NCBI GenBank assembly: GCA_040755755.1
Contig: JBFLZW010000072.1
Location: 12,574 to 76,573 of the forward strand
Length of the DNA: 64,000 bases
From: a bacterium
GTDB lineage: Bacteria; SZUA-182; DTGQ01
Direction of reading: 5' to 3'
A program made the position numbers and the translations under genes. Positions 27,207 through 47,676 of the stretch are shown one piece after another. Within the stretch, counting starts at the first letter, position 1; every line of letters begins with the position of its first letter. The notes under the pieces are model-generated. The model was not told where the DNA came from, searched no databases, and was given only the letters and a program-made list of their open reading frames with translations.

Positions 27207-27230
27207 ACCGCATGCTCCCTGAGAATTTAC

Positions 27231-28662: not shown

Positions 28663-28760
28663 GATTCTTCCTCCTCTTTCGGAGCGATTATAGTTTCACG
28701 ATTTTCTTTTAACCAGTTCTCGGCCTTATCTCTATGTTCCGGAGAAATAAAAACATTCGC

Positions 28761-28918
28761 TACCGGACACTTTTTTTTCAATTCCTGTAATCAACCGCGA
28801 ATGCACACGAATAGACGCTAATAAATTCTTTTGATTTGCCTTCATTATCGAGTCCTCTTTGTTCAGTTCGCGTTCATTCGCGTTCATTCGCGGTTGTTAC
28901 CTCAAAAGTGTCCGGTAG
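28761..28918. mobile_element. MITE-like palindromic element (~158 bp) with nested inverted repeats
   Basis: Outer inverted repeat: taccggacactttt (28761-28774) / aaaagtgtccggta (28905-28918). Inner inverted repeat: caaccgcgaatg (28792-28803) / cattcgcggttg (28885-28896). There is an internal 10-bp tandem cgttcattcg x2. A 9-bp direct repeat taaaaacat lies at 28748-28756 and 28923-28931. Confidence 0.5.
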
Positions 28919-29022
28919 AGAGTAAAAACATAGTCTATAGCGGCAACCGGTACATTCTTTAATGAATTCGATAGAGCCAATGACGAAATGATGCGCTCGT
29001 CTTTGGCTTGTATAGGGGTAAT

Positions 29023-29053
29023 TACTCAGGCACAGAGCTTCTGTGCCTGAGTA
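29023..29053 (-). terminator. Perfect 13-bp stem-loop downstream of the helicase gene
   Basis: tactcaggcacag-agctt-ctgtgcctgagta, read directly. There is no strong U-tract on the minus strand, so terminator function is uncertain. Confidence 0.4.
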
Positions 29054-29118
29054 GTTACTACTATTTTATGTATTCACATTCATGTGAGGGGATACACTTG
29101 TAGTCGATAGAGATTGCA

Positions 29119-32100: not shown

Positions 32101-32619
32101 TTTGTCTTTCATCTCACGCTGCCACTGAAACGATAAATTGGCAGGCGTGACAATCAAGGTGCGCTTAATCAATCCCCGAATTTTCAGCTCCTTAATTAAG
32201 AGGCCCGCCATGATTGTCTTCCCTGCTCCCGGATCATCGGCCAGCAGAAAACGGATGCGTGGCAGCTTCAGGAAATAGTCATAGACTGCCTCCAACTGAT
32301 GTGGCAATGGATCAACCCGGGCAATGGATAAGGTAAAGTAAGGATCATATTCATAGGCCAGGGCGAGTCGTATGGCCTCAATCCCAAGGCGGAACCGCGA
32401 GGCATCTCCATCGAATGGCTCCTTTTCCGGCGTAGTTTCCAGGGTGGCTAACTGCTCAGGCGATAAGACAGGCTCATACACCTGGCCGCTTTTCATACCC
32501 TTACCAATGAGCTTGATGCATTCGCCCATAGGGATAGTCGTAATCACCTGGACCGGTTCGGGAAGTATCGGCCCTTGGATAATCATATTTGGTTTAGGTA
32601 TTATTCCATCATCTTTCAA
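29119..32619 (-). CDS. SNF2-family helicase with a C-terminal DUF3883-like (PD-(D/E)xK fold) domain
   Basis: 1166 aa with helicase motifs LADDPGAGKT (I), LIIVDEAHKM (II), LLMTATP (III) and QRMGRIHRYGQ (VI). The C-terminus has GWVVESVENEDRGFDLISRK...RFIEVKGR. The start is ambiguous: TTG at 32619 or ATG at 32586. Confidence 0.8.
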   Translation of the reverse strand: MKDDGIIPKPNMIIQGPILPEPVQVITTIPMGECIKLIGKGMKSGQVYEPVLSPEQLATLETTPEKEPFDGDASRFRLGIEAIRLALAYEYDPYFTLSIARVDPLPHQLEAVYDYFLKLPRIRFLLADDPGAGKTIMAGLLIKELKIRGLIKRTLIVTPANLSFQWQREMKDKFREQFEIIRGEILRANYGSNPWQERNQVITSVSWVSRIEDAKESLLRSHWDLIIVDEAHKMSAYSSDKKTLAYQLGESLSHMTDHYLLMTATPHKGDPKNFCLFLELLDNDVYGDVKSLEEAMKRREAPFYLRRVKEALVTFPDPDTKQVKALFSKRKVQTTEFQICEKEWDFYDNLTRYVEDQSIKAAADDSARGRALGFTMAMLQRRFASSIYAVRRSLERMKAKREKILADPDGYRKEQILKKVPDDFDDLPEDEQQEIITQLENVVASVDPPALKEEILQLAKLIDQAYLLEQREIESKLVKLKEVITKQGIFHDPKMKLLIFTEHKDTLDYLVGDGKDNRPLGKLREWGLEVTQIHGGMKIGDRDTPGTRIYAEREFREESQIMVATEAAGEGINLQFCWFMINYDIPWNPVRLEQRMGRIHRYGQEKDCLIFNFVSTNTREGRVLHKLFERIKSIEDDLDPKRTGKIFNVLGDVFPSNQLERMLRDMYAHNLTEEVIKDRIVEQVDIERFRRITHSTLEGLAKRELNLSAIVGKSAEAKERRLVPEVIEDFFVQSGPLVGVHPKVLTSQAASPKGKEMGKKDSHIYRIGRIPRTLWPVGERIEARFGKLGREYKQIVFDKNLLTDDPTLEWITPGHPLFECVREDVLDQVQNDLRRGAVFFDLHHKEPSRLDVFSAAIRDGCGNILHRRLFVVQTNLDGTMAVRQPTIFLDLTPAPVGTKTLDDDAMPDRGRVEQFLIEKALHPFLDEISAQREKEIETITRHMEISLNELIHRQNLRMAELLESQQSGETNPLLSANIKTTEDRIDILNARLERRREELQQERHCTISDIQHQGRAWVLPHPERSTPDIAPMVRDEEIERIAVQKAIAHEEARGWVVESVENEDRGFDLISRKLHPEDPKTATEVRFIEVKGRAAVGDVAMTTNEYKTAQRLREDYWLYVVFNCADMPEVHTIQDPVRLGWQPLVKIEHYHVGAKAILGEKNCKNE

Positions 32620-32694: not shown

Positions 32695-33660
32695 CTAGGA
32701 ATACTTTTCCGCAGCTTTGGCCTGAATATCCTTGGGAAGCTGGATGCCCAACCTATAGGAAGTAGAGAGGTTGATAAAGATATCCGGTCGAGGAAGAAGA
32801 ATGGGAATCTGAGCAGGAGTTTTATTCTGCTTGATGATCTGATAAATAATATTATCCGCTACCTGCCTGCCTAACCGCTTTTGGTCATATTCCAGGGCAG
32901 CCAGGGCTCCCATTTGCGCTCCTATTTTTCCGCCTCCGATGAAGGGGAGCCTGCGATTCAGGCAGCTCGAAGTAATGACCGGCAAGGCTGCCTCGACATT
33001 TTTATCCTGAACAACTCCCAGGAGAGCATCTATCTTATCTAACAGGAAATCCAGCTTCTCCGGTAACTCCCTCCCGTTTTCAGGAATCGGGAGGGGCTTT
33101 ATCTCAAGGCCCTGACTGGTGCGGGCGAAATTTTGCAGGGCCTCAACCTGCTCTCTGGATCCGGGGATGCTTTCTGAATAGAGAACTCCAATCGTCTTCA
33201 GCCCCGGCAAAATACTGGTGTACAGCTTCATGCTCTCGGACCAGTCAAATCCGGAAAAGACTCCCGTGTAATTGGCAGCAGGTTTTTCCTGAAATTGAGC
33301 ATAGCCGATGATCGTACGTCCGGGAAGCTTTTCAAGAACCCGTTTCACTTTCTCCGTCCCGATGACATAAACGGGATCCTCTTTAATTTCTCCTAGGCTT
33401 GACTCCTGATAGAAGATGGTATGAATCCCCTTGAACAATAGTCCCTCCCGCAGCCCCTGGATATGCGCTTTATATTCCGCGTAACCATCGACAATGGCCA
33501 CCATGCCCCGTGCTCCGGGCGGAACCGGATCCTGAAAAGGTTTCCTCCTCACGAAGTAAATGATGATGACTATAATAACCAATAAGCTTAAATAAGTAAA
33601 GCTCCTAACCAAAATAACCTGCAATGCCTCACCGATATCTTCTTTTTCCTTCGACTGCAT
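32695..33660 (-). CDS. Membrane-anchored ABC-transporter substrate-binding protein (ABC_sub_bind/DUF534-like)
   Basis: 321 aa with an N-terminal TM segment. KTIGVLYSESIPGSREQVEAL...IDALLGVVQDKNV...LPFIGGG is typical of this family. Confidence 0.55.
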   Translation of the reverse strand: MQSKEKEDIGEALQVILVRSFTYLSLLVIIVIIIYFVRRKPFQDPVPPGARGMVAIVDGYAEYKAHIQGLREGLLFKGIHTIFYQESSLGEIKEDPVYVIGTEKVKRVLEKLPGRTIIGYAQFQEKPAANYTGVFSGFDWSESMKLYTSILPGLKTIGVLYSESIPGSREQVEALQNFARTSQGLEIKPLPIPENGRELPEKLDFLLDKIDALLGVVQDKNVEAALPVITSSCLNRRLPFIGGGKIGAQMGALAALEYDQKRLGRQVADNIIYQIIKQNKTPAQIPILLPRPDIFINLSTSYRLGIQLPKDIQAKAAEKYS

Positions 33661-33681
33661 TGGCTCTCACTTCCTTCATCC

Positions 33682-36597
33682 CTATCGTTTGAAAAAAAAG
33701 GTTATAACAGCGGCCAGTACCCCAAAAAAGGTAACGATGGTCGATAAAGCTATGATCATGGCGAAAAATGTTTTAATGTATAAAAAGCCGACCAGGGTGG
33801 CGACGATGATTGTCAGGGTTATGGTAATCCAGGTAATATAACTGCTGATATCCCCGCTATGGATTTCACTCGCCCTTTTACACATGCGCAAAAACCGTGA
33901 TTGAGCAAAATCGTTTCCTCCCAGTTGGATTTTCGACAAATCTTCAGAGCCGATAATATCAAAGAGCGCTCGCTCGATGAACCTGTCATACCAGACCTCA
34001 ACGATATTAAAATACTTCCAGAGCCCGGCCTTGAATTCATCGCGTCTGGTTAACATGCCCCAGAAAAAGCGGCTGAAAATAACCCGGTCATACGCTCCAC
34101 TCAACTGGCCATCCGCTCTGGTGGCGTTATCGAAAATGCTGCGCTTGTCCGCTGCCAGGTCAAAAGAGTCTGAAAATTTTTCATCAGCATGTGAAATTCT
34201 GTCAAACAGCCTTCTCTCGGCAACAGCCCTGGCCTTATCAAAAACCATATCGTACATCGCATCTACCCGGGAAAAATGACCAAACATACGCCTGGTCCGG
34301 GCAGTCCGGTCGATAACCTGGGTATAGCTCTCATCGACCTGGGAAATGTGGCCGAATATTCCCTTGGCCCGAACGGTCTGATCAACGGACCGGGCATAGT
34401 GCTCGTCAACATGGGAAATCAGCCGGAACATGCCTTTTTCAGCATGCTGAACCGGATCAGGCACAATCAGTTCCCGTTTGATTCCCGGAATCCACAGATA
34501 CACCATCAGCACGGAAATAATTTTCTCGGCCACCCCGACAACTCTCTGGTAGGTTACCCGGCACACAGTGCGAAAGCCGGTAAATGCTTTCTGGTAATAG
34601 GGAGTCAATCCCCAGGCAGGCGACAGGACTTTTTCGGAAAGCCCGGAAGCCAGAAAGATGAGGAAAATCGTTCCTCCAGCCAAAATAGCCGTGCTGCCGC
34701 CGGAAAGGTTGTGAATTGCCTCCGTACTGGCCAGCAGGGTCCGGTGAACCGGATCATACCACAGCGGCAGGGTGGAGTGGGGCAGAGCGGCAGCATGGAT
34801 ATTATAGATCAGATGATAGGCATGAGAATGGGCGTCAAATCCAAAGTAGGGCAGCATGGGACCGATACAATGCTCCAGCAGCCAGTTGGGAAACAATCCA
34901 AAGAGCACAATACCTGCTGAAAAAAGAAGCAGTGAGATATTCATGCCCAGAGGCGAGGGAGAAGAAACCGGTTTACTCGTCGCCTCCTTTTTCGGTCCCA
35001 GAAAGACCATGCTGAAAAGTTTCATGGTATAGGCGAAGGTGCCGCCAGCCGTAATGATGAAAATGATTTCAGCTATCCGAAGCCCGAAATCGGGAGTGTG
35101 TGTGGGGGAGAAATGGACCGAGTGCTGATAGGCCTCCAGGATGGCATGGTGCAGCATGGTCTTGCTGGCAAAACCGTTCAGCAAAGGGAAGCCGGCAATA
35201 GCCAGGACACTGATCAGCAGCGTCAGGGCGGCAATCGGCAAATCCCGCCACAATCCGCCGAGTTTTCGGATATCAAGCTCCCTGGTGTGAAAGTAGACCG
35301 CTCCGACGCTCAGGAATAAGCCCACCTTGAACAGGGCGTGATTGACGATATGGTAGAGGGCTCCTGCAAGGCCCATCGCCCCGCTCCTGCCCATATAGGC
35401 AGCGCAGCCGATGCCCATGACAATGTAGCCCATCTGACTGACACTGGAATAGGCTAAAAGCCGCAGCGCCTGGGTGGAAAGCAGGGCATTGACAGCCCCC
35501 AGCAGCATGGTCATGATCCCCACAAAGATCAGCACATAGCCTAATTGCGCACAGGTCATCCAGGCCGCGGAGTTTTCCAGGTGGCTGGAAGGAGCAAAAA
35601 TCAGGTTGACGGTCCGGAATATCCCATAAGCGCCAACCTCGATCATGACCCCCGACGAGAGGGCAGCGGTGAGGCAGGGGGCTGAACCATAGGATGAAGG
35701 CATCCAGATATGCTCAAGAAAGACACCGGCTTTGCCGCCAAATCCTATGAGAAAGAGCGCGGCCACCCCATACTTGAGAGCCGGATATGCCATCCGGTCA
35801 AGGGCACCCGCCGCACTCTGCATGTCAACCGTACCGGCAAAATACGAGAACAGGAAAATTCCGAACAGCAGCAAAAGGCCGGTAAATACCCCAAAGTAAA
35901 GATAAACCCTGGCAGACTGCAGGGCTTCCTCATCCTCGCGATGAATAACCATCAGGTAGAGAAAGAGAAGGATCGATTCATAAAATATGTATAGAGTAAA
36001 GAGGTCCCCGGCCAGGAAAGCCCCCAGGGTTACACTCAGGCAGCACAGATTGGCGAAATTGTACCGCAGGCGGTGCTGCTCAACGGCTAAATACCCCTGC
36101 GAGAACATGGCAACCAAAAACCATACCAGGCAGGTAAAAACCGCCAGCGTAAAGGCCGCAGGATCGACCCTGAAGGTCAAATTCAGTGAGAACGAGGGCA
36201 AAAAGGGAAGAGCATAGTAGATTCCCTGGCGCAGAGCGCCTGCAAACCTTTGCCCCTGGATCACCGGCGAGTACATCAGCAGGGAAGTGGCCAGGGTCAG
36301 ACCGCTGAACAGGGTGACAATGATCCCCTGCCCCTGACTGTCCCGCAGCCACAGGAGCATCAGAGCCCCGATCAGGGGGATGAGGATAACCACCAGCGGG
36401 AGGGGGGAAGGAATGGACGTTTCCGGAGCCACTCTTTGGGTGACTTCCCCTGCTGCATGAGAACTATGCTCCGCGGGCTGTGAGGCCCAAACTTCAGACA
36501 CCAGGGAGGGAGGAGAAAAAGCAGGGGAAGGAAGAGAACAAAAAAGGAAAAATACCAAAACCACGCCGACGCCGACCGATGCTGTTATCTTGTTCAT
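33682..36597 (-). CDS. NuoL/MrpA-like proton-antiporter subunit with a long repeat-containing C-terminal extension
   Basis: 971 aa with Proton_antipo_M core motifs (FGGKAGVFLEHIWMPSSY, SSGVMIEVGAYGI, LAYSSVSQMGYIV, HIVNHALFKVGLFL). About 260 hydrophilic residues with ~24-aa tandem repeats follow, then two terminal TM helices. Confidence 0.75.
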   Translation of the reverse strand: MNKITASVGVGVVLVFFLFCSLPSPAFSPPSLVSEVWASQPAEHSSHAAGEVTQRVAPETSIPSPLPLVVILIPLIGALMLLWLRDSQGQGIIVTLFSGLTLATSLLMYSPVIQGQRFAGALRQGIYYALPFLPSFSLNLTFRVDPAAFTLAVFTCLVWFLVAMFSQGYLAVEQHRLRYNFANLCCLSVTLGAFLAGDLFTLYIFYESILLFLYLMVIHREDEEALQSARVYLYFGVFTGLLLLFGIFLFSYFAGTVDMQSAAGALDRMAYPALKYGVAALFLIGFGGKAGVFLEHIWMPSSYGSAPCLTAALSSGVMIEVGAYGIFRTVNLIFAPSSHLENSAAWMTCAQLGYVLIFVGIMTMLLGAVNALLSTQALRLLAYSSVSQMGYIVMGIGCAAYMGRSGAMGLAGALYHIVNHALFKVGLFLSVGAVYFHTRELDIRKLGGLWRDLPIAALTLLISVLAIAGFPLLNGFASKTMLHHAILEAYQHSVHFSPTHTPDFGLRIAEIIFIITAGGTFAYTMKLFSMVFLGPKKEATSKPVSSPSPLGMNISLLLFSAGIVLFGLFPNWLLEHCIGPMLPYFGFDAHSHAYHLIYNIHAAALPHSTLPLWYDPVHRTLLASTEAIHNLSGGSTAILAGGTIFLIFLASGLSEKVLSPAWGLTPYYQKAFTGFRTVCRVTYQRVVGVAEKIISVLMVYLWIPGIKRELIVPDPVQHAEKGMFRLISHVDEHYARSVDQTVRAKGIFGHISQVDESYTQVIDRTARTRRMFGHFSRVDAMYDMVFDKARAVAERRLFDRISHADEKFSDSFDLAADKRSIFDNATRADGQLSGAYDRVIFSRFFWGMLTRRDEFKAGLWKYFNIVEVWYDRFIERALFDIIGSEDLSKIQLGGNDFAQSRFLRMCKRASEIHSGDISSYITWITITLTIIVATLVGFLYIKTFFAMIIALSTIVTFFGVLAAVITFFFKR

Positions 36598-36638
36598 GGC
36601 ACAACTCTTCTCTCTGATGCTGAAAAAATCTCATACTG

Positions 36639-38153
36639 CTAATGAAAATAAAATTGGCTGATCCGCTGGGCCAGAGCCAGCGGGAAGCCAGGGAAAATCC
36701 CGAAAATCACCGTTCCCAGAGCCAGCAGGAAGACCGGAATCATCATCACCGGCCTGGGGTCCTGCCGATTCGCTCCCCTGTTACCCTCCTCCTGGATTCC
36801 AAACCAGGCGTTATAGACAATCGGGCCATAGTAGATCAGGTTCATGAAGCTGCTGACAATCAGGGTGCCGACGGCCAGAATGCCCACCCCCAGATTATAG
36901 GAGCCCACCTTGACCGCATCCAGTGCTCCGGCAGCCAGAAACCACTTGCTGATAAACCCGTTGAAGGGCGGAAGGCCGATCATCGACAGTGCTGCTGCCG
37001 TAAAGCAGGCGGTTACCAGCGGCATGCTCCTTCCGATTCCTTTCAGATCATTCAGACACCCTTTGCCGGTCTGATGGATAAATGCACCAGCGCACAAAAA
37101 CAGGGCGGCTTTAATGATCGCATGATTGAAAATGTGCAGAATCCCGGCGGTCAGCCCCAGAGGAGAAAGCAGGGTCAGGCCGAGAATGATGTAGCCGATT
37201 TGCGATACACTGGAGTAACCCAGAAGCCTTTTGATATCTTTTTGATTAATGGCCGCCGCAGAGCCGATGAAAATGGACACCAGAGCCATTCCCAGCAGGA
37301 TAGGCACCAGAACACCTGTCCGCAGGGATTCAAGACCGATGATACTGTAGATGGTCCGGATAATCCCGTAAGCCCCGGCCTTGATCATGACACCGGACGA
37401 GAGGGCCACAGCGCAGGTCGGAGTCTCGGGATAAGCCGAAGGCATCCAGAAATGCAGGGGAAAGATGCCTGCCTTCACCCCAAAGCCGAGGATGTAGCCC
37501 CAGAAAATCAGCGGCAGCCATTTACTTCCCTTTAATCCAAGGCCCACCACGGCAAGGTCGATCGAGCCGGTCAGGGAGCAGGTCAGTAAAATGGACATCA
37601 GGAGGATGAGCCCTCCGCAGATTCCCATGAAGATATAGATAACGCCCCCCCGCATGGCCGCCGGGGTCTGTTCGTGAAGCACCAGCACCAGCGAGGCTAC
37701 GCTCAGAAGCTCAAAGAAGACATACAGGCTGAACAGGTCCCCGGTAAAGACCACGCCAAGCATGCCCACCAGGGTGAGGAGCGAAAAAACATCATACCGG
37801 ATCCGGGCATGTTTTTTCCGCATGAATTCAATGGCAAAAAAGCTGGACAGCATCCAGACCCCCACTGCGATAAGCCCGATGAAGAATCCCAGGGCATCGA
37901 CTCTGAACGAGAAAACCAGCGGGGGAAATCCTCCTTGAGGAGGGGTGAACATGGCAAAGGTCCTGGTGATGACCTTTCCCGCCCTGATGTCCGGGTACAT
38001 GGCGGCAACGGTCAGAAAGGTCAGGAGCGTGGTGAGCGCGGTAAACAGGTTGACCTTTTCCGGAAATCGCCGGTTGATCCGCAGAATCACGGCAATTCCG
38101 AGAAGGGGAATGGATAATGCTAACAAGGGTAACATGCTGCTCATCTGGTTCAT
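36639..38153 (-). CDS. mrpD: MrpD/NuoN-like antiporter subunit (paralog 3)
   Basis: 504 aa with FFELLSVASLVLVLH, GVKAGIFPLHFWMPSAY and LGYSSVSQIGYII. It is a close paralog of 41594-43153. Confidence 0.8.
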   Translation of the reverse strand: MNQMSSMLPLLALSIPLLGIAVILRINRRFPEKVNLFTALTTLLTFLTVAAMYPDIRAGKVITRTFAMFTPPQGGFPPLVFSFRVDALGFFIGLIAVGVWMLSSFFAIEFMRKKHARIRYDVFSLLTLVGMLGVVFTGDLFSLYVFFELLSVASLVLVLHEQTPAAMRGGVIYIFMGICGGLILLMSILLTCSLTGSIDLAVVGLGLKGSKWLPLIFWGYILGFGVKAGIFPLHFWMPSAYPETPTCAVALSSGVMIKAGAYGIIRTIYSIIGLESLRTGVLVPILLGMALVSIFIGSAAAINQKDIKRLLGYSSVSQIGYIILGLTLLSPLGLTAGILHIFNHAIIKAALFLCAGAFIHQTGKGCLNDLKGIGRSMPLVTACFTAAALSMIGLPPFNGFISKWFLAAGALDAVKVGSYNLGVGILAVGTLIVSSFMNLIYYGPIVYNAWFGIQEEGNRGANRQDPRPVMMIPVFLLALGTVIFGIFPGFPLALAQRISQFYFH

Positions 38154-38162
38154 AGGTCTCTC

Positions 38163-39941: not shown

Positions 39942-40056
39942 CCAGCCTCCCCTGCCACAGGGTCTCCCTGCCTCAAGGGCAGTGTCATTGCCTTCGTGCT
40001 ACTAACCCCAAGTCCCTCACCCCAACCCTCTCTCCAAAGGGACGAGGGAGAAAAAC

Positions 40057-40190
40057 GCTCTGCCTTTTCTCTGTGTTTCTCTGTGCCTCTGTGTCTCTGT
40101 GGTGTCCTTTGCCTTTGTCTTTGTATTTGTCTTTGACTTTGCCTTGGTGTTGGTATTTGCCTTAATCTTGGTCTTTGCCTTCGTCTTTTT
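40057..40190. repeat. CACAGAG-octamer core plus ~14 units of hexamer microsatellite (TTTGNN plus-strand / NNCAAA minus-strand)
   Basis: Plus strand: ctctgccttttctctgtgtttctctgtgcctctgtgtctctgtggtgtccttt gcc tttgtc tttgta tttgtc tttgac tttgcc ttggtg ttggta tttgcc ttaatc ttggtc tttgcc ttcgtc. The core matches 16801-16840. Confidence 0.85.
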
Positions 40191-40192
40191 CC

Positions 40193-41185: not shown

Positions 41186-41201
41186 TCTCCTTCTCCTTGC
41201 G

Positions 41202-41573
41202 TCATTTTGACTCCCCCCGTAAAGTGCTGCTTTTTTTATTTTTCAACCTGTCCAGGTAGGTGATAAATCCAAAAGCCCAAAGAGCGATCCCCAGAGTCAG
41301 CTTGTAAAAAAACCGTAAAAATCCTATCTCATTGACCTCATGATATCCGGGAACAAATACTTTTGCGGCAGAATCAAAATACCCGCTTAAAATCTGTCCC
41401 TGCTCCATGAGATAGAGGGAAAGAGCCAAGAAAATGAAAAGTAAGGTCAATGGCTTGATAAGCCGATGTTTCTCCCTTTGATGGAGGAAGAAAAAATACG
41501 ACACCATAAGAACCACCATGGCGATTAATCCAACCCAATACAATTTATAGAGCAGGGGAATGTTACCAGACAT
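41202..41573 (-). CDS. Small 3-TM membrane protein, unknown function
   Basis: The ORF is trimmed to the ATG at 41573 (MSGNIPLLYKLYW...), 18 nt after the upstream mrpD stop. The track start at 41708 overlaps mrpD. Confidence 0.45.
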   Translation of the reverse strand: MSGNIPLLYKLYWVGLIAMVVLMVSYFFFLHQREKHRLIKPLTLLFIFLALSLYLMEQGQILSGYFDSAAKVFVPGYHEVNEIGFLRFFYKLTLGIALWAFGFITYLDRLKNKKSSTLRGESK

Positions 41574-41593
41574 CCAATAAAACTCCTTCCTGA

Positions 41594-43153
41594 TTACGGG
41601 AAGAATATACGGCTGATCTGCCAGGCAATGCGCAGCGGTATGCCCGGCGCAATGCCAAAGACCAGAACAGCAGTGGTTAATAGTAAGATCGGCGTCAGCA
41701 TGACCCAATTGGGATCTTCGCTTTTATGCTCTTTCGAGCCTGGATTGGCTGAAGCGGCATGAGCGTGATCCGCCACGGCAGCATGGCTGCCGGCAGGCTG
41801 GTGGGCTGCATCGTGCTCCTCTCTTGGCTGCATCCAGGCACCGATGACTACCGGACCGTAGTAAACCAGGTTCAGCAGACTGCTGAGCAGCAGGGTCAGG
41901 AGGGCGATCAAGCCCAATCCCGGCCAGTAATTACCCATTTTCATCATATCCAGCGCTCCCAGGGCCAAAAACCACTTGCTGATGAACCCGATAAACGGCG
42001 GCAGCCCGATCATCGACAGGGCGCAGATGCTGAAAGCCAGGGTAATCCACGGCATTCTCCGTCCAATTCCCTTCAGGTCCTCCAGGTTCCGCAGACCGGT
42101 TTTATAAATAAATGCCCCGGCGCACATGAACAGTGTCCCTTTCATCAGGGCATGGCCAAAGATATGGACCATGCCGCCGACAATGCCCCGCGGAGCCAGC
42201 AGGCAAAATCCCATGATGATATACCCGATCTGCGAAATACTGGAATAAGCCAGCATCTTCTTGATTTCCGTCTGGGTGATGGCGCAGGCTGACCCCAGAA
42301 AGATAGTCACCAGACTGATAATCAGCATCGGCAGCAACAGGCCCATGTGATCCTTGACAATGTCCTGATAGCCGATGATATTGTAAATGGTCTTGAAAAT
42401 TCCATACGCTCCGGCCTTGATCATAACGCCCGAAAGAAGTGCACTGGCTCCGGAGGGGGCTACCGGGTGGGCTGACGGGAGCCAGATATGGAGAGGAAAC
42501 ATACCGGCTTTGACTCCGAAACCGATGATGTAGCCCCAGAATATCCAGGGCAGCCATTTGCTCCCCTGCAGCCCGAGGCCGATCAGGGTAAGGTCTCCGG
42601 TTCCGGTAATGTAATAGGTCATGACAATGGAAAAGAGGAGCACCAGTCCTCCGGCGATTCCCAGGAACAGATACTTGAATCCCGCTTTCATGGCCTCAGG
42701 GGTTTCCTCGTGAAAGACGAGAATGGCCGAGGCCACACTCAACAGTTCGAAAAATATGTAGAGCGTGAAAAGGTTTCCGGTAAAGACCACGCCCATCATT
42801 CCGCTGAGTGAGAGAAGAGAGAAGATGTTGAACCGGGCATGTGCATGGGAATGATGCATATATTCGATGCTGTAAATTGAAGACAGGGTCCAGAGGACAA
42901 CGGAAATGAGGCCGACGAAAAGACCGGGCAGATCGGCCCGGAAAACGAAATTGAAGCCCAGCCCCGTATCCAGGGTAAGGTCAAGGATATTCCCGTCGAC
43001 AATCGCCGGATACATGGCGAGAATAAGGAGCATGGTGACTCCGCTGACAATAGCCGTATAATGATACAGCCGGTGCTTCTGGACAAAGGGGCGAAAGATC
43101 ATGGCAATGAGAGGGAACATAACCACTAACAGGGGAAGATAGCTTTTAATCAT
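41594..43153 (-). CDS. mrpD: MrpD/NuoN-like antiporter subunit (paralog 2)
   Basis: 519 aa with FFELLSVASAILVFH, GVKAGMFPLHIWLPSAH and LAYSSISQIGYII. Confidence 0.8.
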   Translation of the reverse strand: MIKSYLPLLVVMFPLIAMIFRPFVQKHRLYHYTAIVSGVTMLLILAMYPAIVDGNILDLTLDTGLGFNFVFRADLPGLFVGLISVVLWTLSSIYSIEYMHHSHAHARFNIFSLLSLSGMMGVVFTGNLFTLYIFFELLSVASAILVFHEETPEAMKAGFKYLFLGIAGGLVLLFSIVMTYYITGTGDLTLIGLGLQGSKWLPWIFWGYIIGFGVKAGMFPLHIWLPSAHPVAPSGASALLSGVMIKAGAYGIFKTIYNIIGYQDIVKDHMGLLLPMLIISLVTIFLGSACAITQTEIKKMLAYSSISQIGYIIMGFCLLAPRGIVGGMVHIFGHALMKGTLFMCAGAFIYKTGLRNLEDLKGIGRRMPWITLAFSICALSMIGLPPFIGFISKWFLALGALDMMKMGNYWPGLGLIALLTLLLSSLLNLVYYGPVVIGAWMQPREEHDAAHQPAGSHAAVADHAHAASANPGSKEHKSEDPNWVMLTPILLLTTAVLVFGIAPGIPLRIAWQISRIFFP

Positions 43154-43221: not shown

Positions 43222-44799
43222 TTACCTTAACAGCAGCCTGGCCGCAGGCAAGGCAGCACCGTGATAAGGATATTTTACGAGCACTCCCAGGATAATTACT
43301 AATACGGCTAAAATGCAGACCGGTATCAACATTGTTTTAGATGCTTCGTCAACTGTCTCTATCTCTATCTTCGGATTTCCAAAATAGCTGATCGCCACTA
43401 CCCGAAAATAATAAACCGCATTCAACAGGCTGCTGACCAGAAGAACAATAAGCAGCCACGGCATACCCGCCTGGATAGTGGCTGTAGCCAGAACCCATTT
43501 GCTCATGAAACCGCACATCGGAGGAATCCCCACCAGCGAACAGGCTCCGATGGTGAAACAGGCCATGGTGGCAGGCATCCGATATCCCAATTTTCCCATG
43601 TCGGTGATATTCCTGATGCCCGTTTTGTACAGAATGATTCCGGAGCACAGAAACATCAAACTCTTAACAATGGCATGGTTAACGATATGGAGGATAGATC
43701 CGGCCAGCCCATAGGGAGTGATCAGAGCTATCCCGAAAAGAATGTACCCCATCTGGGCAATGGTTGAATAGGCCAGCATTCTTTTTAACTGCGTCTGAAC
43801 TATTGCAAAAAGTGAGCCACTCAGAATGGTGATACTGCTGATAATTAAAAAAAGCGGAGAGATGATTTCTCCATAGTAGCCTTTATGGATGCCAAAAACC
43901 GTGAACACAAAGCGAATCAGTAAAAATACCCCGGTAGTTTTGACAATCAGTCCGGATAAAAGAGCACTGATCGATGCCGGGGCCGCGGGATGAGCATCAG
44001 CCAGCCAGGCATGGCTGGGGAAAAAGGCAGCCTTGATACTGAATCCCATGATGAATAATCCCAGTGAAGCATAAACCAGATACCGGTAGGGAGAGAGCGG
44101 TGATCCGGGATGAGAGCCGACGATTTTGGCAATCTGCTGGGAGGCATAATTCATATTGAGCGTTCCGGTGGCATTAAAGAGGAGCCCAATGGCAAAAACG
44201 ATCAGGATTGAGCTCAAAGCCCCGGTGAGAATATACTTGAAGGTGGCTTCCAGCGACTCAGGCCGCCCGCTGATAGAGACCAGCGTATAGGAGCTGATGG
44301 AAGCGATTTCGAAAAAAACATAGAAATTGAAGCAGTCGCCGGTGATGGCAATCCCGGACATTCCTGCCAGCATCAGGAGCAGCAGAGTGTAATAATAGGT
44401 GTGCTTTTCCTTCGGTACTTCATGGTGAATGTATCGGCAGGAATAGAGCGAGGCCAGAAAACCGATGCCGTTGATCAAAATCAGCAGGATGGCCCCGAAA
44501 AGATCTGTGCGCAGGGCGATGCCGATCGGCTGGCCTGTCTGGAGCTGGCTTTTGCCTCCCCAGTGATATCCGGTCAGATACTCGATATATCCGGTGGGGG
44601 AGGCCAGGACCTTGGTCAGGATCGCCAGAGAGGCTGTAAAACCGGCCACGGTGACCAGAAGGACCAGGGGCTCCCGGTATTTCGGGTTGAGCCTGGAAAT
44701 GATGGGAATTACCAGGGCACTGGCTATTAAAATAACCGGGACCAAGATTTGTAAATGAGATGCACCGATGCCAATAGCTGAATCCATACTACCAACCAT
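43222..44799 (-). CDS. mrpD: MrpD/NuoN-like antiporter subunit (paralog 1)
   Basis: 525 aa with FFEIASISSYTLV, SIKAAFFPSHAWLADAH and LAYSTIAQMGYIL. Confidence 0.8.
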   Translation of the reverse strand: MVGSMDSAIGIGASHLQILVPVILIASALVIPIISRLNPKYREPLVLLVTVAGFTASLAILTKVLASPTGYIEYLTGYHWGGKSQLQTGQPIGIALRTDLFGAILLILINGIGFLASLYSCRYIHHEVPKEKHTYYYTLLLLMLAGMSGIAITGDCFNFYVFFEIASISSYTLVSISGRPESLEATFKYILTGALSSILIVFAIGLLFNATGTLNMNYASQQIAKIVGSHPGSPLSPYRYLVYASLGLFIMGFSIKAAFFPSHAWLADAHPAAPASISALLSGLIVKTTGVFLLIRFVFTVFGIHKGYYGEIISPLFLIISSITILSGSLFAIVQTQLKRMLAYSTIAQMGYILFGIALITPYGLAGSILHIVNHAIVKSLMFLCSGIILYKTGIRNITDMGKLGYRMPATMACFTIGACSLVGIPPMCGFMSKWVLATATIQAGMPWLLIVLLVSSLLNAVYYFRVVAISYFGNPKIEIETVDEASKTMLIPVCILAVLVIILGVLVKYPYHGAALPAARLLLR

Positions 44800-44965: not shown

Positions 44966-45370
44966 TTACCCTTTTAATCTCATGATCTTCCGAGTATCCA
45001 ATGTCCCGTAATGTTCGTATATTTTTATGGATAAGGCCAAAGAAATGGCCGTTACACTGATGCTGACCACAATGGCCGTTAAAATAAGGGCCGATGGTAT
45101 TGGATTAACCAAAGCCACCTGCCCGGCTGCCGCTCTGGCCGCATGCGCGGCATCGGCAATTTCCGGCGGTCCTGCCCACTGCCAGGTGGCAGGTCCAAGC
45201 CGGACATCCGCCGAGGCGATGAAGAACAGGTAGACCGAAGTTTCGATCACATTCATCCCGATCAGTTTCTTGATCAGATTGGGTTTTACGATCAGCGCAT
45301 ACAGCCCGATGCAAAACAGGATGACGGTAACAATGTAATCGATTCTACTCAATACCGGTTCGATCCACAT
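44966..45370 (-). CDS. mrpC: MrpC/NuoK-like subunit
   Basis: Trimmed to the ATG at 45370 (MWIEPVLSRIDYIVTVILFCIGLYALIVKPNLIKKLIGMNVIETSVYLFFIA). It has three TM segments and overlaps the mrpB end by 26 nt. Confidence 0.65.
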   Translation of the reverse strand: MWIEPVLSRIDYIVTVILFCIGLYALIVKPNLIKKLIGMNVIETSVYLFFIASADVRLGPATWQWAGPPEIADAAHAARAAAGQVALVNPIPSALILTAIVVSISVTAISLALSIKIYEHYGTLDTRKIMRLKG

Positions 45371-45887
45371 CCGACCATCTCCTCGTGTACGGCAGTTCCC
45401 GGTGATTTTTCCGATAGGCTTCATCCCGCCTCTCTTCCAGGAATGCGAAAAATAACCCGGTGAAGATACTGGCCACAGCCAGACCGACACCGATATTAAT
45501 CCAAAAAAGAGTCCCTCCGCTGAGAAGCTCTCCCGGCATACCGGACGGATAGATACCAGCCGCCTTATTGGCCAGAAAACGATATCCCAGGAACATACCG
45601 GCCAATCCTGCGCCGATATACAGGAATATCCCCGCACTGACCCCCCACATCAATGAAGAAGCGGGGACCATCTTGCGGCCCTTTTTTCTCTGAAAAGCCA
45701 GAGTGAAGAGAATGCATGCGGCACTGATAATCACCCCGCCCTGAAATCCCCCTCCCGGAGTCAAATGCCCGTGAGTGATCAGGTAGATGCCGAACATGAT
45801 AACAAAGGGGCACATTATCCGGCTGACCTGCTGAATGACAATGCCTGTATGGTATTCCTGTCGATCTTTCCTTCCCTGGTCATTCAT
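45345..45887 (-). CDS. mrpB: MrpB/MbhF-like subunit
   Basis: Trimmed to the ATG at 45887 (MNDQGRK...). The HGHLTPGGGFQGGV signature is that of MnhB-type subunits. Confidence 0.7.
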   Translation of the reverse strand: MNDQGRKDRQEYHTGIVIQQVSRIMCPFVIMFGIYLITHGHLTPGGGFQGGVIISAACILFTLAFQRKKGRKMVPASSLMWGVSAGIFLYIGAGLAGMFLGYRFLANKAAGIYPSGMPGELLSGGTLFWINIGVGLAVASIFTGLFFAFLEERRDEAYRKNHRELPYTRRWSDVDRTGIE

Positions 45888-46221
45888 GGGGGTTGTCACT
45901 CTCTCTCGTGCCGATGATGGAAAGTACGCCAATCAGGGCTGCAAATAAAACAGTTGTTTCAAAAAGGGTATCATACCCCCGGTAATCGAAAATAATGGCC
46001 GCGATAATATCCAGCGCACCCGTCTCCGCGCAGGCATGACGATTGTAGTGCAGGGCAACGGAATCGGCCTTTTCAACCACCTGAGCTTTGGTCAGGGAAG
46101 GATCAACGAAATCTGCATATCCGGGCAGATGAGGATCCCCGATGGGGTTAAACCTCATGATAACCAGTACCATGCTGAAGGCAAAAACCGTAAACAGTAT
46201 GGCCGGAAGAAATTTCCTCAC
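45880..46221 (-). CDS. MbhE-like / MrpB N-terminal-like subunit
   Basis: 113 aa. DIIAAIIFDYRGYDTLFETTV matches the D(Y/F)RG(Y/F)DTLGE motif of Mbh/Mrp B-type subunits. Confidence 0.6.
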   Translation of the reverse strand: MRKFLPAILFTVFAFSMVLVIMRFNPIGDPHLPGYADFVDPSLTKAQVVEKADSVALHYNRHACAETGALDIIAAIIFDYRGYDTLFETTVLFAALIGVLSIIGTRESDNPHE

Positions 46222-46470
46222 TTAATCCTCCCTCCTCTTTGTCCTGCAGAGGGCGGCGACGAACAAAATGCTGGAAATTCCAGCTCCCACGGCAGCTTCG
46301 GTCATGGCCACATCCACTGCCCTCAATATGCTGTAGGTTACGGTAATAGTAAAGCTGTAAGCACTGTAAATAATGACCGATTCCAGAAGGTCCCTGGACA
46401 TGATGGCCGCAAGAGCAGTCGCCACCAGAAAGATCAGGATAATCACATGAGCCAGGATTACAGGATCCAT
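46222..46470 (-). CDS. DUF4040 / MbhD-like small membrane subunit
   Basis: Trimmed to the ATG at 46470 (MDPVILAHVIILIFLVATALAAIMSRDLLESVIIYSAYSF..MTEAAVGAG), giving 82 aa. Confidence 0.55.
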   Translation of the reverse strand: MDPVILAHVIILIFLVATALAAIMSRDLLESVIIYSAYSFTITVTYSILRAVDVAMTEAAVGAGISSILFVAALCRTKRRED

Positions 46471-46490
46471 ATTTTTTTCTCTTTCCTTAC

Positions 46491-46844
46491 TCAACCTTTC
46501 CGGTCCTTCAAAAGATTCACGGTGGTTCCCTTCACCCACGGCACCCCGGTCTTGTAGCAGAACCGCAGAATGGCATGCACCGCTATCGGGTTGGAAAACA
46601 ACATGAAAACAAGAATCAGCAGGATTTTTAAACTCTCCAGGGGGTTGATGGTCAACCAATAGAGCCATACGCCGGTCAGGGAGAGGAGAAACCCCGGGCC
46701 ATCACCCTTTCCGGCTGCATGGGCCCGGTTATACGGGTCAGGCATCCGGATGATACCGACCGTGGCTGCAACGAAAAAAAATACACCGCCGGTAATAAAG
46801 ATTCCGGCTACAATCTGCAGCAATACCGTCACGTAGATCATCAC
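46491..46844 (-). CDS. mrpG: MrpG/MnhG-like subunit
   Basis: 117 aa with GIIRMPDPYNRAHAAGKGD (the RxPDxYxRxHAxxK signature). Confidence 0.7.
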   Translation of the reverse strand: MMIYVTVLLQIVAGIFITGGVFFFVAATVGIIRMPDPYNRAHAAGKGDGPGFLLSLTGVWLYWLTINPLESLKILLILVFMLFSNPIAVHAILRFCYKTGVPWVKGTTVNLLKDRKG

Positions 46845-47116
46845 TCACCCAGGTCCCGATGTTCCAGATATTTGATAAAAGCGATTGTGGTCACATAGAT
46901 CAGCATGGCATAGAGCATGGCGATATCGAGGAACGAGCTTTTTTGAAAAATGGCCGCCAGAAAAACGAACGCCACTACGGCCTTGGTCCCCACTACATTG
47001 ATGCCAATAATCCGGTCGGCAGTGGTCGGACCCAGCACAGCCCGGTAGAGGCAGAAAAAAATCGTGCAGGACAGGACCAAAATAGCCAGTTTCAATAAAA
47101 AGTCGAGCTCAATCAC
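46841..47116 (-). CDS. mrpF: MrpF/MnhF-like subunit
   Basis: Trimmed to the GTG at 47116 (GTGA overlap with the mrpE stop; GGAGG lies 8 nt upstream). LYRAVLGPTTADRIIGINVVG is the MnhF signature. Confidence 0.65.
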   Translation of the reverse strand: MIELDFLLKLAILVLSCTIFFCLYRAVLGPTTADRIIGINVVGTKAVVAFVFLAAIFQKSSFLDIAMLYAMLIYVTTIAFIKYLEHRDLGE

Positions 47117-47676
47117 CTTTGTTTCCTCCGATAAATAGAGCGGATTTTCTCCACAAATCCCCCGCTCTCCAGTATCCCCTTCACTGCTTCCTGACTGATA
47201 CAATGAACCCAGAAAATACTTCCTTTATCCGTTTTTTCCGCCTCAATAGTAATCGTACCGGGCGTAAGAGTAATCGAGTTGGCGTTCAGGGTAATCTCCC
47301 CATCCGTGTGCAGAGGAGTTTCAACCTGGACAATGCCCGGAGAGATCATCAATTGTCTGCGCAATACTCTCCTGGCCACATCGATTCCGGCCAGGAAAAT
47401 ATCGATCATCAGACGATTGCCGTACATGACCAGCCGAAACAGCGTTCCAAGGTCACGGTGCTTCGAGATTTGCCGGGAACTGAAAATACATTCCGGGTAC
47501 AGGGAAACGATGAGCAGGGAAATGATCAATCCGACGATACTGTGTTCGAAAAGATTTATCAGACCTAATTTTGACCAGATGCCGTCATGGAGAGAAATAA
47601 CCATCCAGAACAAAAAAAGACAGACTGCCGCCACCCCAAATTCATCCCTCTTTTTTCCCCTCAATAACCTTCTCAA
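47113..47676 (-). CDS. mrpE: MrpE/MnhE-like subunit
   Basis: 187 aa with two N-terminal TM helices and NANSITLTPGTITIE (the MnhE SITLTPGT block). Confidence 0.7.
   Translation of the reverse strand: MRRLLRGKKRDEFGVAAVCLFLFWMVISLHDGIWSKLGLINLFEHSIVGLIISLLIVSLYPECIFSSRQISKHRDLGTLFRLVMYGNRLMIDIFLAGIDVARRVLRRQLMISPGIVQVETPLHTDGEITLNANSITLTPGTITIEAEKTDKGSIFWVHCISQEAVKGILESGGFVEKIRSIYRRKQR

What the first reader, a model, noticed from the sequence alone, without database searches (positions are those of the whole stretch)
34072..34443. Five or more tandem ~24-aa repeats in the C-terminal tail of the NuoL-like subunit: a possible extra-long lateral helix
Seen in sequence:
- Residues ~722-843 read MFRLISHVDEHYARSVDQTVRAKG / IFGHISQVDESYTQVIDRTARTRR / MFGHFSRVDAMYDMVFDKARAVAERR / LFDRISHADEKFSDSFDLAADKRS / IFDNATRADGQLSGAYDRVIFSR.
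- The repetition is also visible in the DNA.
- Weaker repeats follow, and then two terminal TM helices.

Established knowledge: in NuoL/MrpA, a long amphipathic helix (HL) followed by a C-terminal TM anchor runs along the neighbouring antiporter-like subunits.

Inference: the repeat expansion lengthens this connecting element so that it spans the three additional MrpD paralogs encoded in the operon, roughly one repeat block per neighbour. I am not aware of this being described.
Basis: partly seen in the sequence, partly recalled or inferred. Interest (0 to 1): 0.65.

Follow-up and report, generated by a model that had tools for sequence, protein, structure and literature searches.

The report
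Repeat-built oversized lateral helix, Mrp subunit
The largest subunit of an unusual four-pump Mrp-type ion antiporter has, where relatives carry a single surface "strap" helix, a much longer helical tail built from five tandem 24-26-residue modules.

Summary
Observation confirmed. The gene at 33682-36597 (minus strand, 971 aa) has a Proton_antipo_M core. Residues 723-843 hold five tandem 24-26-aa units (period-24 self-similarity z = 9.4; each unit matches a repeat HMM at E = 4e-11 to 2e-9). Two terminal TM helices follow. The DNA-level repeat is weak.

Interpretation partly supported. The tail occupies the TM15 / lateral helix / anchor position of MrpA and NuoL. It is Pro-free, amphipathic and predicted helical, but as one ~20-residue helix per unit and at low confidence (pLDDT 33-58).

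The family is rare and lineage-restricted, and its operon is conserved. Operons with two MrpD genes have one unit and a 152-aa tail (2 loci). Operons with three MrpD genes plus a small 3-TM protein have 3-5 units and tails of 214-298 aa. At a constant three MrpD genes the count differs between close relatives in three separate lineages, so there is no one-to-one rule. The tail is also about twice as long as the neighbours require.

Scaling of lateral-helix length with pump number, including ~26-aa insertions, is already published. Building the helix from tandem modules of variable copy number is what I did not find described. Verdict: a new variant of a known device, of moderate interest.

The parts
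33682..36597 (-). Gene for the long antiporter-like subunit (971 aa, P0001), of MrpA-N/NuoL type
   Evidence: ORF. PF00361 E = 1.4e-45 and PF00662 E = 7.5e-6. Best PDB sequence matches are MbhH 6cfw_H and MrpA 7qru_A. Best Foldseek matches are MrpA 9a6h_A, 7qru_A and 6z16_A.
34843..36402 (-). 14-TM antiporter core (residues 66-585) with the canonical charged residues E207, K289, H296, K424 and K479
   Evidence: AlphaFold2 pLDDT is mostly above 90. These residues are invariant across 59 L- and D-type sequences.
34648..34725 (-). TM15 (residues 625-650), preceded by a His-rich periplasmic loop (586-624)
   Evidence: DSSP helix 625-650. Motif HNLSGGSTAILAGG is conserved; N630, L631, G641 and G642 are invariant. 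Loop composition.
34465..34608 (-). Pre-repeat amphipathic helix (residues 664-711), conserved in the family
   Evidence: DSSP helix 664-711 in both models, pLDDT 55-66 in the second. Alignment A2.
34360..34431 (-). Repeat unit R1 (residues 723-746)
   Evidence: HMM E = 4e-10. Predicted helix 724-744.
34288..34359 (-). Repeat unit R2 (residues 747-770). This is the extra unit absent from the closest relatives. It resembles both R1 and the first half of R3.
   Evidence: HMM E = 4e-11. It appears as a 24-column insertion in alignment A2. In 24-nt windows at a 72-nt offset, 12-19 of 24 bases match R1 and 13-17 of 24 match the first half of R3. The sister protein in L001 has 4 units.
34210..34287 (-). 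Repeat unit R3 (residues 771-796, 26 aa)
   Evidence: HMM E = 8e-10.
34138..34209 (-). Repeat unit R4 (residues 797-820)
   Evidence: HMM E = 2e-9. Predicted helix 798-817.
34069..34137 (-). Repeat unit R5 (residues 821-843), ending in the family-wide VIFSR motif. This unit aligns with the single unit of the 2-MrpD forms.
   Evidence: HMM E = 2e-10. V839, I840, F841, S842 and R843 are invariant among the 10 closest homologues. Alignment A2.
33952..34068 (-). Degenerate repeat units (residues 844-882: FFWGML... and WKYFNIVEVWYDRFIERALF)
   Evidence: The same HMM detects this unit in L010 and L004 at E = 6e-5 and 1e-3. Predicted helices 843-850 and 853-882.
33850..33951 (-). Conserved pre-anchor segment (residues 883-916: GSEDLSK ... 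IHSGD)
   Evidence: Invariant G883-K889, H913, G915 and D916.
33691..33849 (-). Terminal TM hairpin (residues 917-938 and 944-969), the presumed anchor (TM16-17)
   Evidence: DSSP helices. Hydrophobic sequence, with the C-terminus ending in KR.
36639..38153 (-). MrpD paralogue 3 (504 aa), immediately upstream of the long subunit
   Evidence: PF00361 E = 1.8e-54.
41594..43153 (-). MrpD paralogue 2 (519 aa)
   Evidence: PF00361 E = 4.1e-60.
43222..44799 (-). MrpD paralogue 1 (525 aa)
   Evidence: PF00361 E = 2.4e-65.
41202..41708 (-). Small membrane protein (about 3 TM) with no family match. It is present in every 3-MrpD operon examined and absent from the 2-MrpD operons.
   Evidence: Translation. 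No Pfam or NCBIfam hit. Orthologues P0021 and P0022. Synteny.
44966..47676 (-). MrpE, F, G, MbhD-like, MbhE-like, MnhB and MrpC genes. These form the proximal (Na+/Pc-type) module of the same operon.
   Evidence: PF01899, PF04066, PF03334, PF13244, PF20501 and PF04039. PF00420.

Best explanation
The 971-aa protein is the MrpA-N/NuoL-type long antiporter-like subunit of an Mbh-ordered Mrp (CPA3-type) cluster. The cluster encodes four pump modules (three MrpD plus this one) and no redox module in the operon.

After the 14-TM core and TM15, a 266-residue cytoplasmic tail (651-916) leads to a two-helix membrane anchor. I read this tail as the equivalent of the lateral helix HL, in a segmented and oversized form. 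It has three parts:
- a conserved 48-residue helix;
- five 24-26-residue amphipathic modules with consensus Phi-F-x-x-I-S-K-A/V-D-E-K-Y/L/F-S-G-x-Phi-D-K-A-I-x-x-K/R-G;
- two degenerate modules.

Each module would be a ~20-residue helix re-phased at a Gly-rich junction. Its apolar face would sit on the membrane or protein surface. A conserved acidic flank (D9, D17) would face the pump subunits, and a basic flank would face lipid head-groups. The strap would tie the distal subunit to the three MrpD subunits and the small 3-TM protein, and would anchor near the proximal module.

Modules are gained and lost by unequal recombination. The window's R2 is such a gain. One module (about 36 A) is close to the pitch of one pump subunit, but modules are not matched one-to-one to subunits. 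A minimum length seems to be required, and surplus modules are tolerated.

Shown here: the repeats, their position in the protein, the helical and amphipathic prediction, the copy-number variation and the synteny. Inferred: the cytoplasmic side (by homology), the lateral course along the neighbours, the docking role of the conserved face and the site of anchoring.
For: - Repeat statistics.
- Position between TM15 and the terminal TM hairpin, with a confident NuoL/MrpA-type core.
- Foldseek alignments to MrpA and NuoL run through the C-terminal extension (870-882 and 714-760 columns), against ~530 columns for MrpD-type chains.
- The tail is predicted helical in two independent AlphaFold2 runs. 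The repeat region has 0 Pro in 121 residues, and the whole tail has 40 K/R.
- Over 45 units, the apolar arc spans 320-100 degrees, the acidic flank 80-160 degrees and the basic flank 240-300 degrees.
- 2-MrpD operons (L006, L020) have one unit and exactly 152 aa from TM15 to the anchor. 3-MrpD operons have 214-298 aa.
- Literature: HL is universal in this superfamily and its length scales with the number of antiporter-like subunits (PMC8165549). A ~26-aa HL insertion accompanies an extra subunit (PMC9040806). [quoted passage not shown]
Against: - The repeat region has pLDDT of only 33-58. I had no access to model coordinates, so I cannot say whether the predicted helices are collinear or packed.
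- A 24-residue period turns the amphipathic face by -120 degrees per unit, so a single continuous surface helix is unlikely.
- If fully helical, the tail would be about 400 A. Four pump modules plus a small subunit need about 175 A.
- Unit number varies from 3 to 5, and tail length from 214 to 298 aa, at constant subunit content.
- No multimer model or experimental structure exists.
- The 2-MrpD class rests on two related loci only.
Confidence: 0.55

Rival explanations
1. The repeat array is a cytoplasmic helical-repeat scaffold or tether rather than a strap lying along the neighbours. It could bind a partner such as a regulator, a second protomer or another complex. It could also simply give the TM hairpin a long leash. 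Only the conserved flanking helices would then do the HL job.
For: - AlphaFold2 predicts discrete ~20-residue helices with breaks at every unit boundary.
- The tail is about twice as long as the neighbours need.
- A conserved acidic residue (D9) sits at the edge of the apolar face, which suggests specific protein contacts.
- Unit number changes freely, with near-identical units in L030 and P0011.
- The 2-MrpD forms manage with one unit plus the flanking helices.
Against: - No candidate partner is conserved. The two-component genes are absent from L005, L008, L009, L013 and L027, although the repeats are present there.
- With an acidic flank on one side and a basic flank on the other, flat antiparallel packing of neighbouring units would put like charges together (inference).
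- Neither a profile of the tail against PDB sequences nor a Pfam scan finds any known repeat domain.
Confidence: 0.25
2. The units are selectively near-neutral expansions of a slippage- and recombination-prone linker. Any helical spacer above a minimum length would do, and the motif conservation only reflects recent common origin.
For: - The unit count differs between close relatives in three lineages, and there are near-identical copies elsewhere in the family (P0011, L030, L027).
- Tail length varies widely at constant operon content.
Against: - Units within one protein are old (36-65% nucleotide identity, 14-45% amino-acid identity). They nevertheless keep nine positions at 91% or more of one residue class across 45 units from about 11 proteins (F2 41/45, D9 36/45, D17 37/45). 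That indicates purifying selection on one helical face.
- The 2-MrpD forms keep exactly 152 aa despite their divergence.
Confidence: 0.12
3. The tail is periplasmic. The hydrophobic stretch 686-703 would act as an additional TM helix, and the tail would form an extracytoplasmic helical domain working together with the His-rich periplasmic segments and the PF04392 binding-protein-like gene product.
For: - Residues 686-703 have a mean Eisenberg hydrophobicity of 0.67.
- His-rich periplasmic segments and a conserved downstream PF04392 gene exist.
Against: - The hydrophobic stretch is not conserved as a TM candidate in P0016, P0018 or P0012.
- The tail carries 40 K/R, and the C-terminus ends in KR after a two-helix hairpin, which fits a cytoplasmic tail.
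- By homology with NuoL and MrpA, TM15 exits to the cytoplasm (PMC9568556).
Confidence: 0.05

Closest known systems
Lateral helix (TM15-HL-TM16) of MrpA in Mrp/CPA3 antiporters (PDB 7qru_A, 6z16_A, 7d3u_A)
   Same: - The 14-TM antiporter core is followed by TM15, a cytoplasmic amphipathic helical element and a TM anchor.
- These are the best Foldseek matches, with 870-882 aligned columns.
- The operon holds MrpE, F, G, B, C and D homologues.
   Different: - The tail is 266 residues, not the roughly 65-70 of the E. coli NuoL amphipathic helix (estimated from PMC3274701).
- It is built from tandem 24-26-aa modules and is predicted to be segmented.
- It must pass three MrpD subunits instead of one.
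- The anchor is a two-helix hairpin.
- The MrpA C-terminal domain is not fused; it is encoded separately as MbhD- and MbhE-like genes.
HL-extended NuoL of Nitrospira '2M' complex I, and MrpD2 of 'Ca. Manganitrophaceae' Complex_I_3 (PMC9040806, citing Chadwick et al. 2018)
   Same: - An extra antiporter-like subunit is accompanied by a longer HL.
- The published insertion (~26 aa) has the same size as one module here (24-26 aa).
   Different: - Those cases have a single insertion in a bona fide complex I with a redox arm.
- Here there are 3-5 or more tandem homologous modules with copy-number variation.
- No redox module is present in the operon.
- The extension is far longer than one module per extra subunit.
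MbsH' of the P. furiosus MBS complex (PDB 6u8y_X) and HyfB/HycC-type long subunits
   Same: - A long antiporter-like subunit carries HL and TM15-16, in a cluster where the MrpA C-terminal part is split off as D/E subunits.
- The top NCBIfam hits to the core are PRK08668 (annotated NADH dehydrogenase subunit M; 613 positions) and hydrogenase-4 subunit B.
- The phmmer match to 6u8y_X has E = 7.7e-32.
   Different: - Those complexes carry a hydrogenase- or sulfane-reductase-type peripheral arm and one or two pump modules.
- Their HL is short and non-repetitive (PMC8165549).

Membership tests
NuoL/MrpA-N-type antiporter-like subunit (Proton_antipo_M with a C-terminal HL extension) | 14-TM Proton_antipo_M core with the conserved TM5 Glu, TM7 Lys, TM8 His and TM12 Lys | tested here: met
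   PF00361 E = 1.4e-45. E207, K289, H296 and K424 are invariant in 59 sequences. Core pLDDT is above 90. In Foldseek, MrpD-type chains superpose on the core at 2.8-3.5 A rmsd.
NuoL/MrpA-N-type antiporter-like subunit (Proton_antipo_M with a C-terminal HL extension) | A 15th TM helix, then an amphipathic helical element, then a terminal TM anchor | tested here: met
   TM15 at 625-650, helices across 664-882, terminal TM helices at 917-938 and 944-969. Amphipathic consensus. Alignments to MrpA and NuoL extend beyond the core.
NuoL/MrpA-N-type antiporter-like subunit (Proton_antipo_M with a C-terminal HL extension) | The helical element runs laterally along the neighbouring antiporter-like subunits on the cytoplasmic surface | not testable with these tools
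The repeat region has pLDDT 33-58.
NuoL/MrpA-N-type antiporter-like subunit (Proton_antipo_M with a C-terminal HL extension) | HL is essentially one helix of about 65-70 residues (about 110 A in complex I) | tested here: not met
   There are 266 residues between TM15 and the anchor. Nine helices (4-48 residues long) are predicted between them, with breaks at every unit boundary. The E. coli AH spans about residues 525-589 (PMC3274701). The 110 A figure is from my own knowledge of Efremov & Sazanov 2011.
Canonical MrpA (full length) | Fused C-terminal domain (TM17-21, MrpB/NuoJ-like) | tested here: not met
   The protein ends after a two-helix hairpin. MbhD-like (PF13244) and MbhE-like (PF20501) genes are separate.
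Mrp / CPA3-type multisubunit antiporter cluster (Mbh gene order) | MrpE, F, G, B, C and D homologues in one operon | tested here: met
   PF01899, PF04066, PF03334, PF04039, PF00420 and PF00361. The same order is found in 15 or more related loci.
Mrp / CPA3-type multisubunit antiporter cluster (Mbh gene order) | Na+(K+)/H+ antiport activity | not testable with these tools
   No functional data exist. All carriers are uncultured MAGs.
2M-type complex I NuoL with extended HL | Part of a nuo operon with a redox (N/Q) module and a second NuoM | tested here: not met
   No Nuo redox-arm genes are present in the operon at 33682-47676 or in the related loci.

The most novel reading that the evidence does not exclude
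The 24-26-residue module may be a quantised pitch unit of the lateral strap, since about 36 A is roughly the width of one antiporter-like subunit. Unequal crossing-over would then let the strap be resized in whole-subunit steps, which would make it an evolvable ruler for adding pump modules. The roughly two-fold surplus length in this family would mean that the strap runs the full length of the complex, including the small-subunit (Na+) module, or that it reaches a second protomer. That would be an architecture not seen in any solved complex-I-like machine.
Probability: 0.2. Interest if true: 0.7.

Novelty: new variant of a known kind. Interest (0 to 1): 0.5.

Why it matters
The lateral helix is the one element that physically ties together the pump modules of complex I, Mrp, MBH and MBS. 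Whether it is a passive clamp or a coupling element has long been debated.

This family offers a natural series of strap lengths on an otherwise conserved four-pump complex. The strap is built from exchangeable modules, and their number differs between close relatives (1 to 5 or more). That makes it a convenient system for asking how much strap length and rigidity matter for assembly and coupling, and how complexes gain extra pump modules.

It also shows that the published rule (HL length tracks the number of antiporter-like subunits) holds only as a lower bound here.

Tried and rejected
- **Tandem Repeats Finder** on 33000-36000 found nothing at a minimum score of 30. The repeat is a protein-level feature.
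- **First AlphaFold2 run**, with only the 10 closest homologues, gave a mean pLDDT of 44.6 and was unusable for tertiary structure. I replaced it with a 59-sequence alignment that adds L- and D-type subunits from related loci.
I could therefore not measure whether the repeat helices are collinear.
I used the full-length alignment A1 instead.
- **Profile search of the tail against PDB sequences** gave only noise, with E > 3. The Pfam scan of the tail gave no family.
An assembly artefact is unlikely, because the units share at most 65% nucleotide identity.
- **A TM helix at 686-703**, which would put the tail in the periplasm, was rejected. The stretch is not hydrophobic in P0016, P0018 or P0012, and the charge distribution argues against it.
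- **Dependence on the embedded two-component genes** was rejected. Five related operons lack those genes but keep the repeats.
- **The ISME J 2018 paper on 2M complex I** is not in the library. I cite its content through PMC9040806.
Full report
**1. What is at the coordinates**

The finding lies on the minus strand, inside the ORF 33682-36597 (971 aa, P0001). Positions 34072-34443 correspond to residues 719-842. All five quoted peptide units are present: R1 723-746, R2 747-770, R3 771-796, R4 797-820 and R5 821-843.

The BLOSUM62 self-similarity of residues 716-900 has a single peak, at an offset of 24 residues. The score there is +0.66, against -0.92 +/- 0.17 in 2000 shuffles (z = 9.4); offsets 25 and 26 are at background. 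A profile HMM built from units of the family finds exactly five units in the window protein, each at E = 4e-11 to 2e-9.

At the DNA level the repeat is weak. Pairwise nucleotide identity is 36-65%, and Tandem Repeats Finder reports nothing. The remark that it is visible in the DNA holds only for R1 against R2.

**2. The protein and its operon**

The protein has a Proton_antipo_M core (PF00361, E = 1.4e-45) and the N-terminal PF00662 motif. Its best sequence matches among solved structures are MbhH (6cfw_H), MrpA (7qru_A), MrpD and MbsH' (6u8y_X). All of these alignments stop at about residue 580.

Upstream on the same strand lie, in order:
- MrpE, MrpF and MrpG;
- MbhD-like and MbhE-like genes;
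- MnhB and MrpC;
- two MrpD paralogues;
- a small ~3-TM protein with no family match;
- a REC-GGDEF regulator and a hybrid histidine kinase;
- a third MrpD.

Then comes this gene, followed by a PF04392 binding-protein-like gene. The operon therefore has four pump modules, and no redox module is encoded in it.

**3. Structure prediction**

A 10-sequence alignment gave an unusable model, with mean pLDDT 44.6. Adding the L- and D-type subunits of the related loci (59 sequences) raised the mean pLDDT to 72.4, with the 14-TM core mostly above 90.

After the core the model has:
- TM15 at 625-650;
- a 48-residue helix at 664-711 (pLDDT 55-66);
- one ~20-residue helix per repeat unit (724-744, 748-767, 779-792, 798-817, 821-840), with breaks at the unit boundaries;
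- helices at 843-850, 853-882 and 901-913;
- two TM helices at 917-938 and 944-969.

The repeat region has pLDDT of only 33-58. I had no access to the coordinates, so I take from this model only the secondary structure.

Foldseek against the PDB ranks MrpA chains first (9a6h_A, 7qru_A, 6z16_A), with 870-882 aligned columns. NuoL, ND5 and NdhF chains follow with about 680-800 columns (714-760 for the NuoL chains listed). MrpD, NuoM and NuoN-type chains align over only about 530 columns. The protein is therefore of the long type (core, TM15, lateral helix, anchor) and not of MrpD type.

By homology, TM15 exits to the cytoplasm. [quoted passage not shown] The composition agrees with a cytoplasmic tail:
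- the tail carries 40 K/R in 266 residues;
- the C-terminus after the hairpin ends in KR;
- the repeat region has no proline.

**4. Anatomy of a unit**

Across 45 units from about 11 proteins the consensus is Phi1-F2-x-x-I5-S6-K7-A/V8-D9-E10-K11-Y/L/F12-S13-G14-x-Phi16-D17-K18-A19-I20-x-x-K/R23-G24. On a helical wheel:
- the apolar positions (1, 2, 5, 8, 12, 16, 19, 20) fill an arc from 320 to 100 degrees;
- the conserved S6, D9, D13 and D17 lie on one flank (80-160 degrees);
- the basic positions 4, 7, 11 and 18 lie on the other flank (240-300 degrees).

This is a clearly amphipathic helix with an acidic edge and a basic edge. Such asymmetry is what one would expect of a strap lying at a protein-lipid boundary, with one edge toward the protein and the other toward lipid head-groups. 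This is my inference and has not been tested.

Two features argue against a single continuous helix. First, 24 residues at 100 degrees per residue rotate the face by -120 degrees per unit. Second, Gly is frequent at positions 24 and 14 (36% each) and at position 3 (22%).

**5.

The tail is rare. A phmmer scan of 1.84 billion representative proteins found 11 hits. The word-indexed search of 5.8 billion clusters found 10. Among the window genome's relatives, the tail is present throughout the genus, family and order and in part of the class. It then appears in only 1 of 21 genomes related only at the domain level. Carriers are uncultured MAGs labelled 'bacterium' or 'Pseudomonadota bacterium'.

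I parsed 26 related loci. Two operon types exist.

- **Type A:** E-F-G-MbhD-MbhE-B-C-D-D-small-[regulator and kinase, optional]-D-L-SBP.
  - The small protein follows the third D in L009 and L027.
  - The long subunit is 893-1045 aa where the gene is complete.
  - The distance from TM15 to the anchor motif IHSGD is 214-298 aa.
  - There are 3-5 strict units.
- **Type B** (L006 and L020): E-F-G-MbhD-B(fused)-C-D-D-L-SBP, with no small protein.
  - The long subunit is 722-723 aa.
  - The distance is exactly 152 aa in both loci.
  - A single unit is present, and it aligns with the window's R5.

Within type A, however, the unit number changes with no change in subunit content:
- the window has 5 units, while its sister L001 and the whole surrounding clade have 4;
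- L014 and L017 have 5, while their sisters L015 and L018 have 4;
- the fragment P0011 has 5, with two near-identical copies;
- L019 has 3.

These states are placed on a maximum-likelihood tree of the core (unit calls). The window's extra unit, R2, appears as a clean 24-column insertion in the alignment. In the DNA it resembles R1 along its whole length and R3 in its first half. This fits an old tandem duplication offset by half a unit.

More distant members show the same tendency:
- L030 has four nearly identical 25-aa units;
- L027 carries an exact 12-aa duplication;
- L028 has a 360-aa tail made of longer units.

The rule of roughly one repeat block per neighbour is therefore not supported. 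Going from 2 to 3 MrpD genes adds 3-4 units, and copy number drifts at constant composition.

**6. Length bookkeeping**

In E. coli NuoL the amphipathic helix spans roughly residues 525-589, with TM16 starting at about Y590 (PMC3274701). In complex I it is about 110 A long and serves three pump modules (the length is from my own knowledge of Efremov & Sazanov 2011). That is about 22-24 residues, or about 37 A, per module.

One unit here (24-26 aa, about 36 A as a helix) has that size. So does the ~26-aa HL insertion reported for NuoL of the Nitrospira 2M complex I and for MrpD2 of 'Ca. Manganitrophaceae' (PMC9040806).

Four pump modules plus a 3-TM protein would need roughly 110-120 residues. 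The window tail has 266, and the shortest type-A tail has about 190. The tail is long enough to run the whole length of such a complex, or to have slack. I cannot tell which.

**7. Explanation and rivals**

My best reading (0.55) is a segmented, oversized lateral-helix strap. Its modules are gained and lost by unequal recombination. A minimum length is set by the number of modules to be spanned, and surplus length is tolerated.

The rivals are:
- a cytoplasmic helical-repeat scaffold or tether with another partner (0.25);
- near-neutral linker expansion (0.12), which is weakened by the strong conservation of one helical face in old, diverged units;
- a periplasmic domain (0.05).

**8. Novelty**

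Two points are already published. HL length scales with the number of antiporter-like subunits (PMC8165549). HL can also be lengthened by about 26 aa for an extra subunit (PMC9040806, citing Chadwick et al. 2018).

My four full-text searches found no description of an HL built from tandem homologous modules with copy-number variation, nor of an HL-position element this long. This is an absence in the library searched, not proof.

Earlier AI notes of this scan report repeat-built lateral helices with 24-27-aa modules in several other genomes, with the same conclusion that module number does not track subunit number. Those stretches share no sequence words with this one. I treat them as leads, not evidence. 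If they are real, they would point to repeated independent invention of a ~25-residue module.

I rate the finding a new variant of a known kind, with interest 0.5.

Noticed in passing
window 34726-34842 (residues 586-624) and 36403-36531 (residues 23-65); relatives P0005 and P0006 (N-termini); P0021 and P0022: The predicted periplasmic side of the long subunit is His-rich. A conserved loop before TM15 (DAHSHAYHLIYNIHAAALPHS; S591, H592, Y594 and H595 invariant) has 6 His. After the N-terminal signal-anchor comes a His-containing stretch, which in relatives expands into long HEEA/SHE-type repeats. The small 3-TM protein of relatives has a similar His-rich N-terminus. By homology-based topology, periplasmic loops hold 10 His and cytoplasmic loops hold 1. 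This could be a metal-binding or proton-antenna feature.
   Followed up: partly
window 41202-41708 (-) and 41594-43153 (-): The small 3-TM protein ORF overlaps the end of MrpD2 by 115 nt. It lacks the signal-anchor and His-rich N-terminus seen in its orthologues (193-223 aa as called). The real start is probably the internal Met (MSGNIPLLYKLYW...). In the window, a His-rich stretch (EEHDAAHQPAGSHAAVADHAHAAS) sits instead near the C-terminus of MrpD2.
   Followed up: partly
L030:1170-3851 (-), genome G026: A distant family member has four nearly identical 25-aa tandem units (GGMWEVFGRADTNYDSMLGEAIQKQ) in the same tail position. It has a different, single-TM C-terminal end, and a further MrpD-like gene lies downstream of the long subunit. 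This looks like a very recent expansion.
   Followed up: no
L028:346-3141 (-), genome G019; L027:13566-16496: L028 has a 360-aa TM15-to-anchor distance, built from about 7-8 longer units of the type L..hE..Y...hD+hIFG. L027 carries an exact duplication, SEKQVWDELKIL x2. The contig of L028 is too short to show its operon.
   Followed up: no
window 38163-41185 (-); loci L005, L008, L009, L013, L027: The REC-GGDEF regulator and the hybrid histidine kinase lie inside the operon in only part of the family. Five related operons lack them, with otherwise the same gene order, so they look like a lineage-specific insertion.
   Followed up: partly
window 32695-33660 (-); L001, L003-L006, L010, L011, L013-L017, L019, L020, L025: A PF04392 (ABC_sub_bind) protein gene follows the long subunit gene in 15 of the related loci parsed, including the 2-MrpD type (L006, L020/L025). 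It may be a conserved periplasmic component or a sensor of the system. Contigs L002, L012 and L018 end before the position. No such gene was detected after the long subunit in L007, L008 or L009.
   Followed up: no
window 21341-32619 compared with L001:13082-17119 and L003:13158-16875: In relatives, the SBP-like gene is followed directly by an ~889-aa protein with no Pfam hit, then by polysaccharide deacetylase, RseC and PFK genes. In the window, about 11 kb (helicase / methyltransferase / ATPase genes) lies between the SBP-like gene and an 887-aa ORF (18516-21179).
   Followed up: partly
window 44966-45637 (-): The MrpC/NuoK-like ORF is 223 aa from its first GTG, but the Pfam match begins at residue 101 and the orthologues are 134-135 aa. 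The true start is probably internal, and the long form overlaps the MnhB gene.
   Followed up: no
L007:5180-7750 (genome G013): An orphan long subunit (856 aa, two units, 201-aa tail) has no Mrp genes within its whole 12-kb contig. It lies among glycosyltransferase and polysaccharide-synthesis genes.
   Followed up: no
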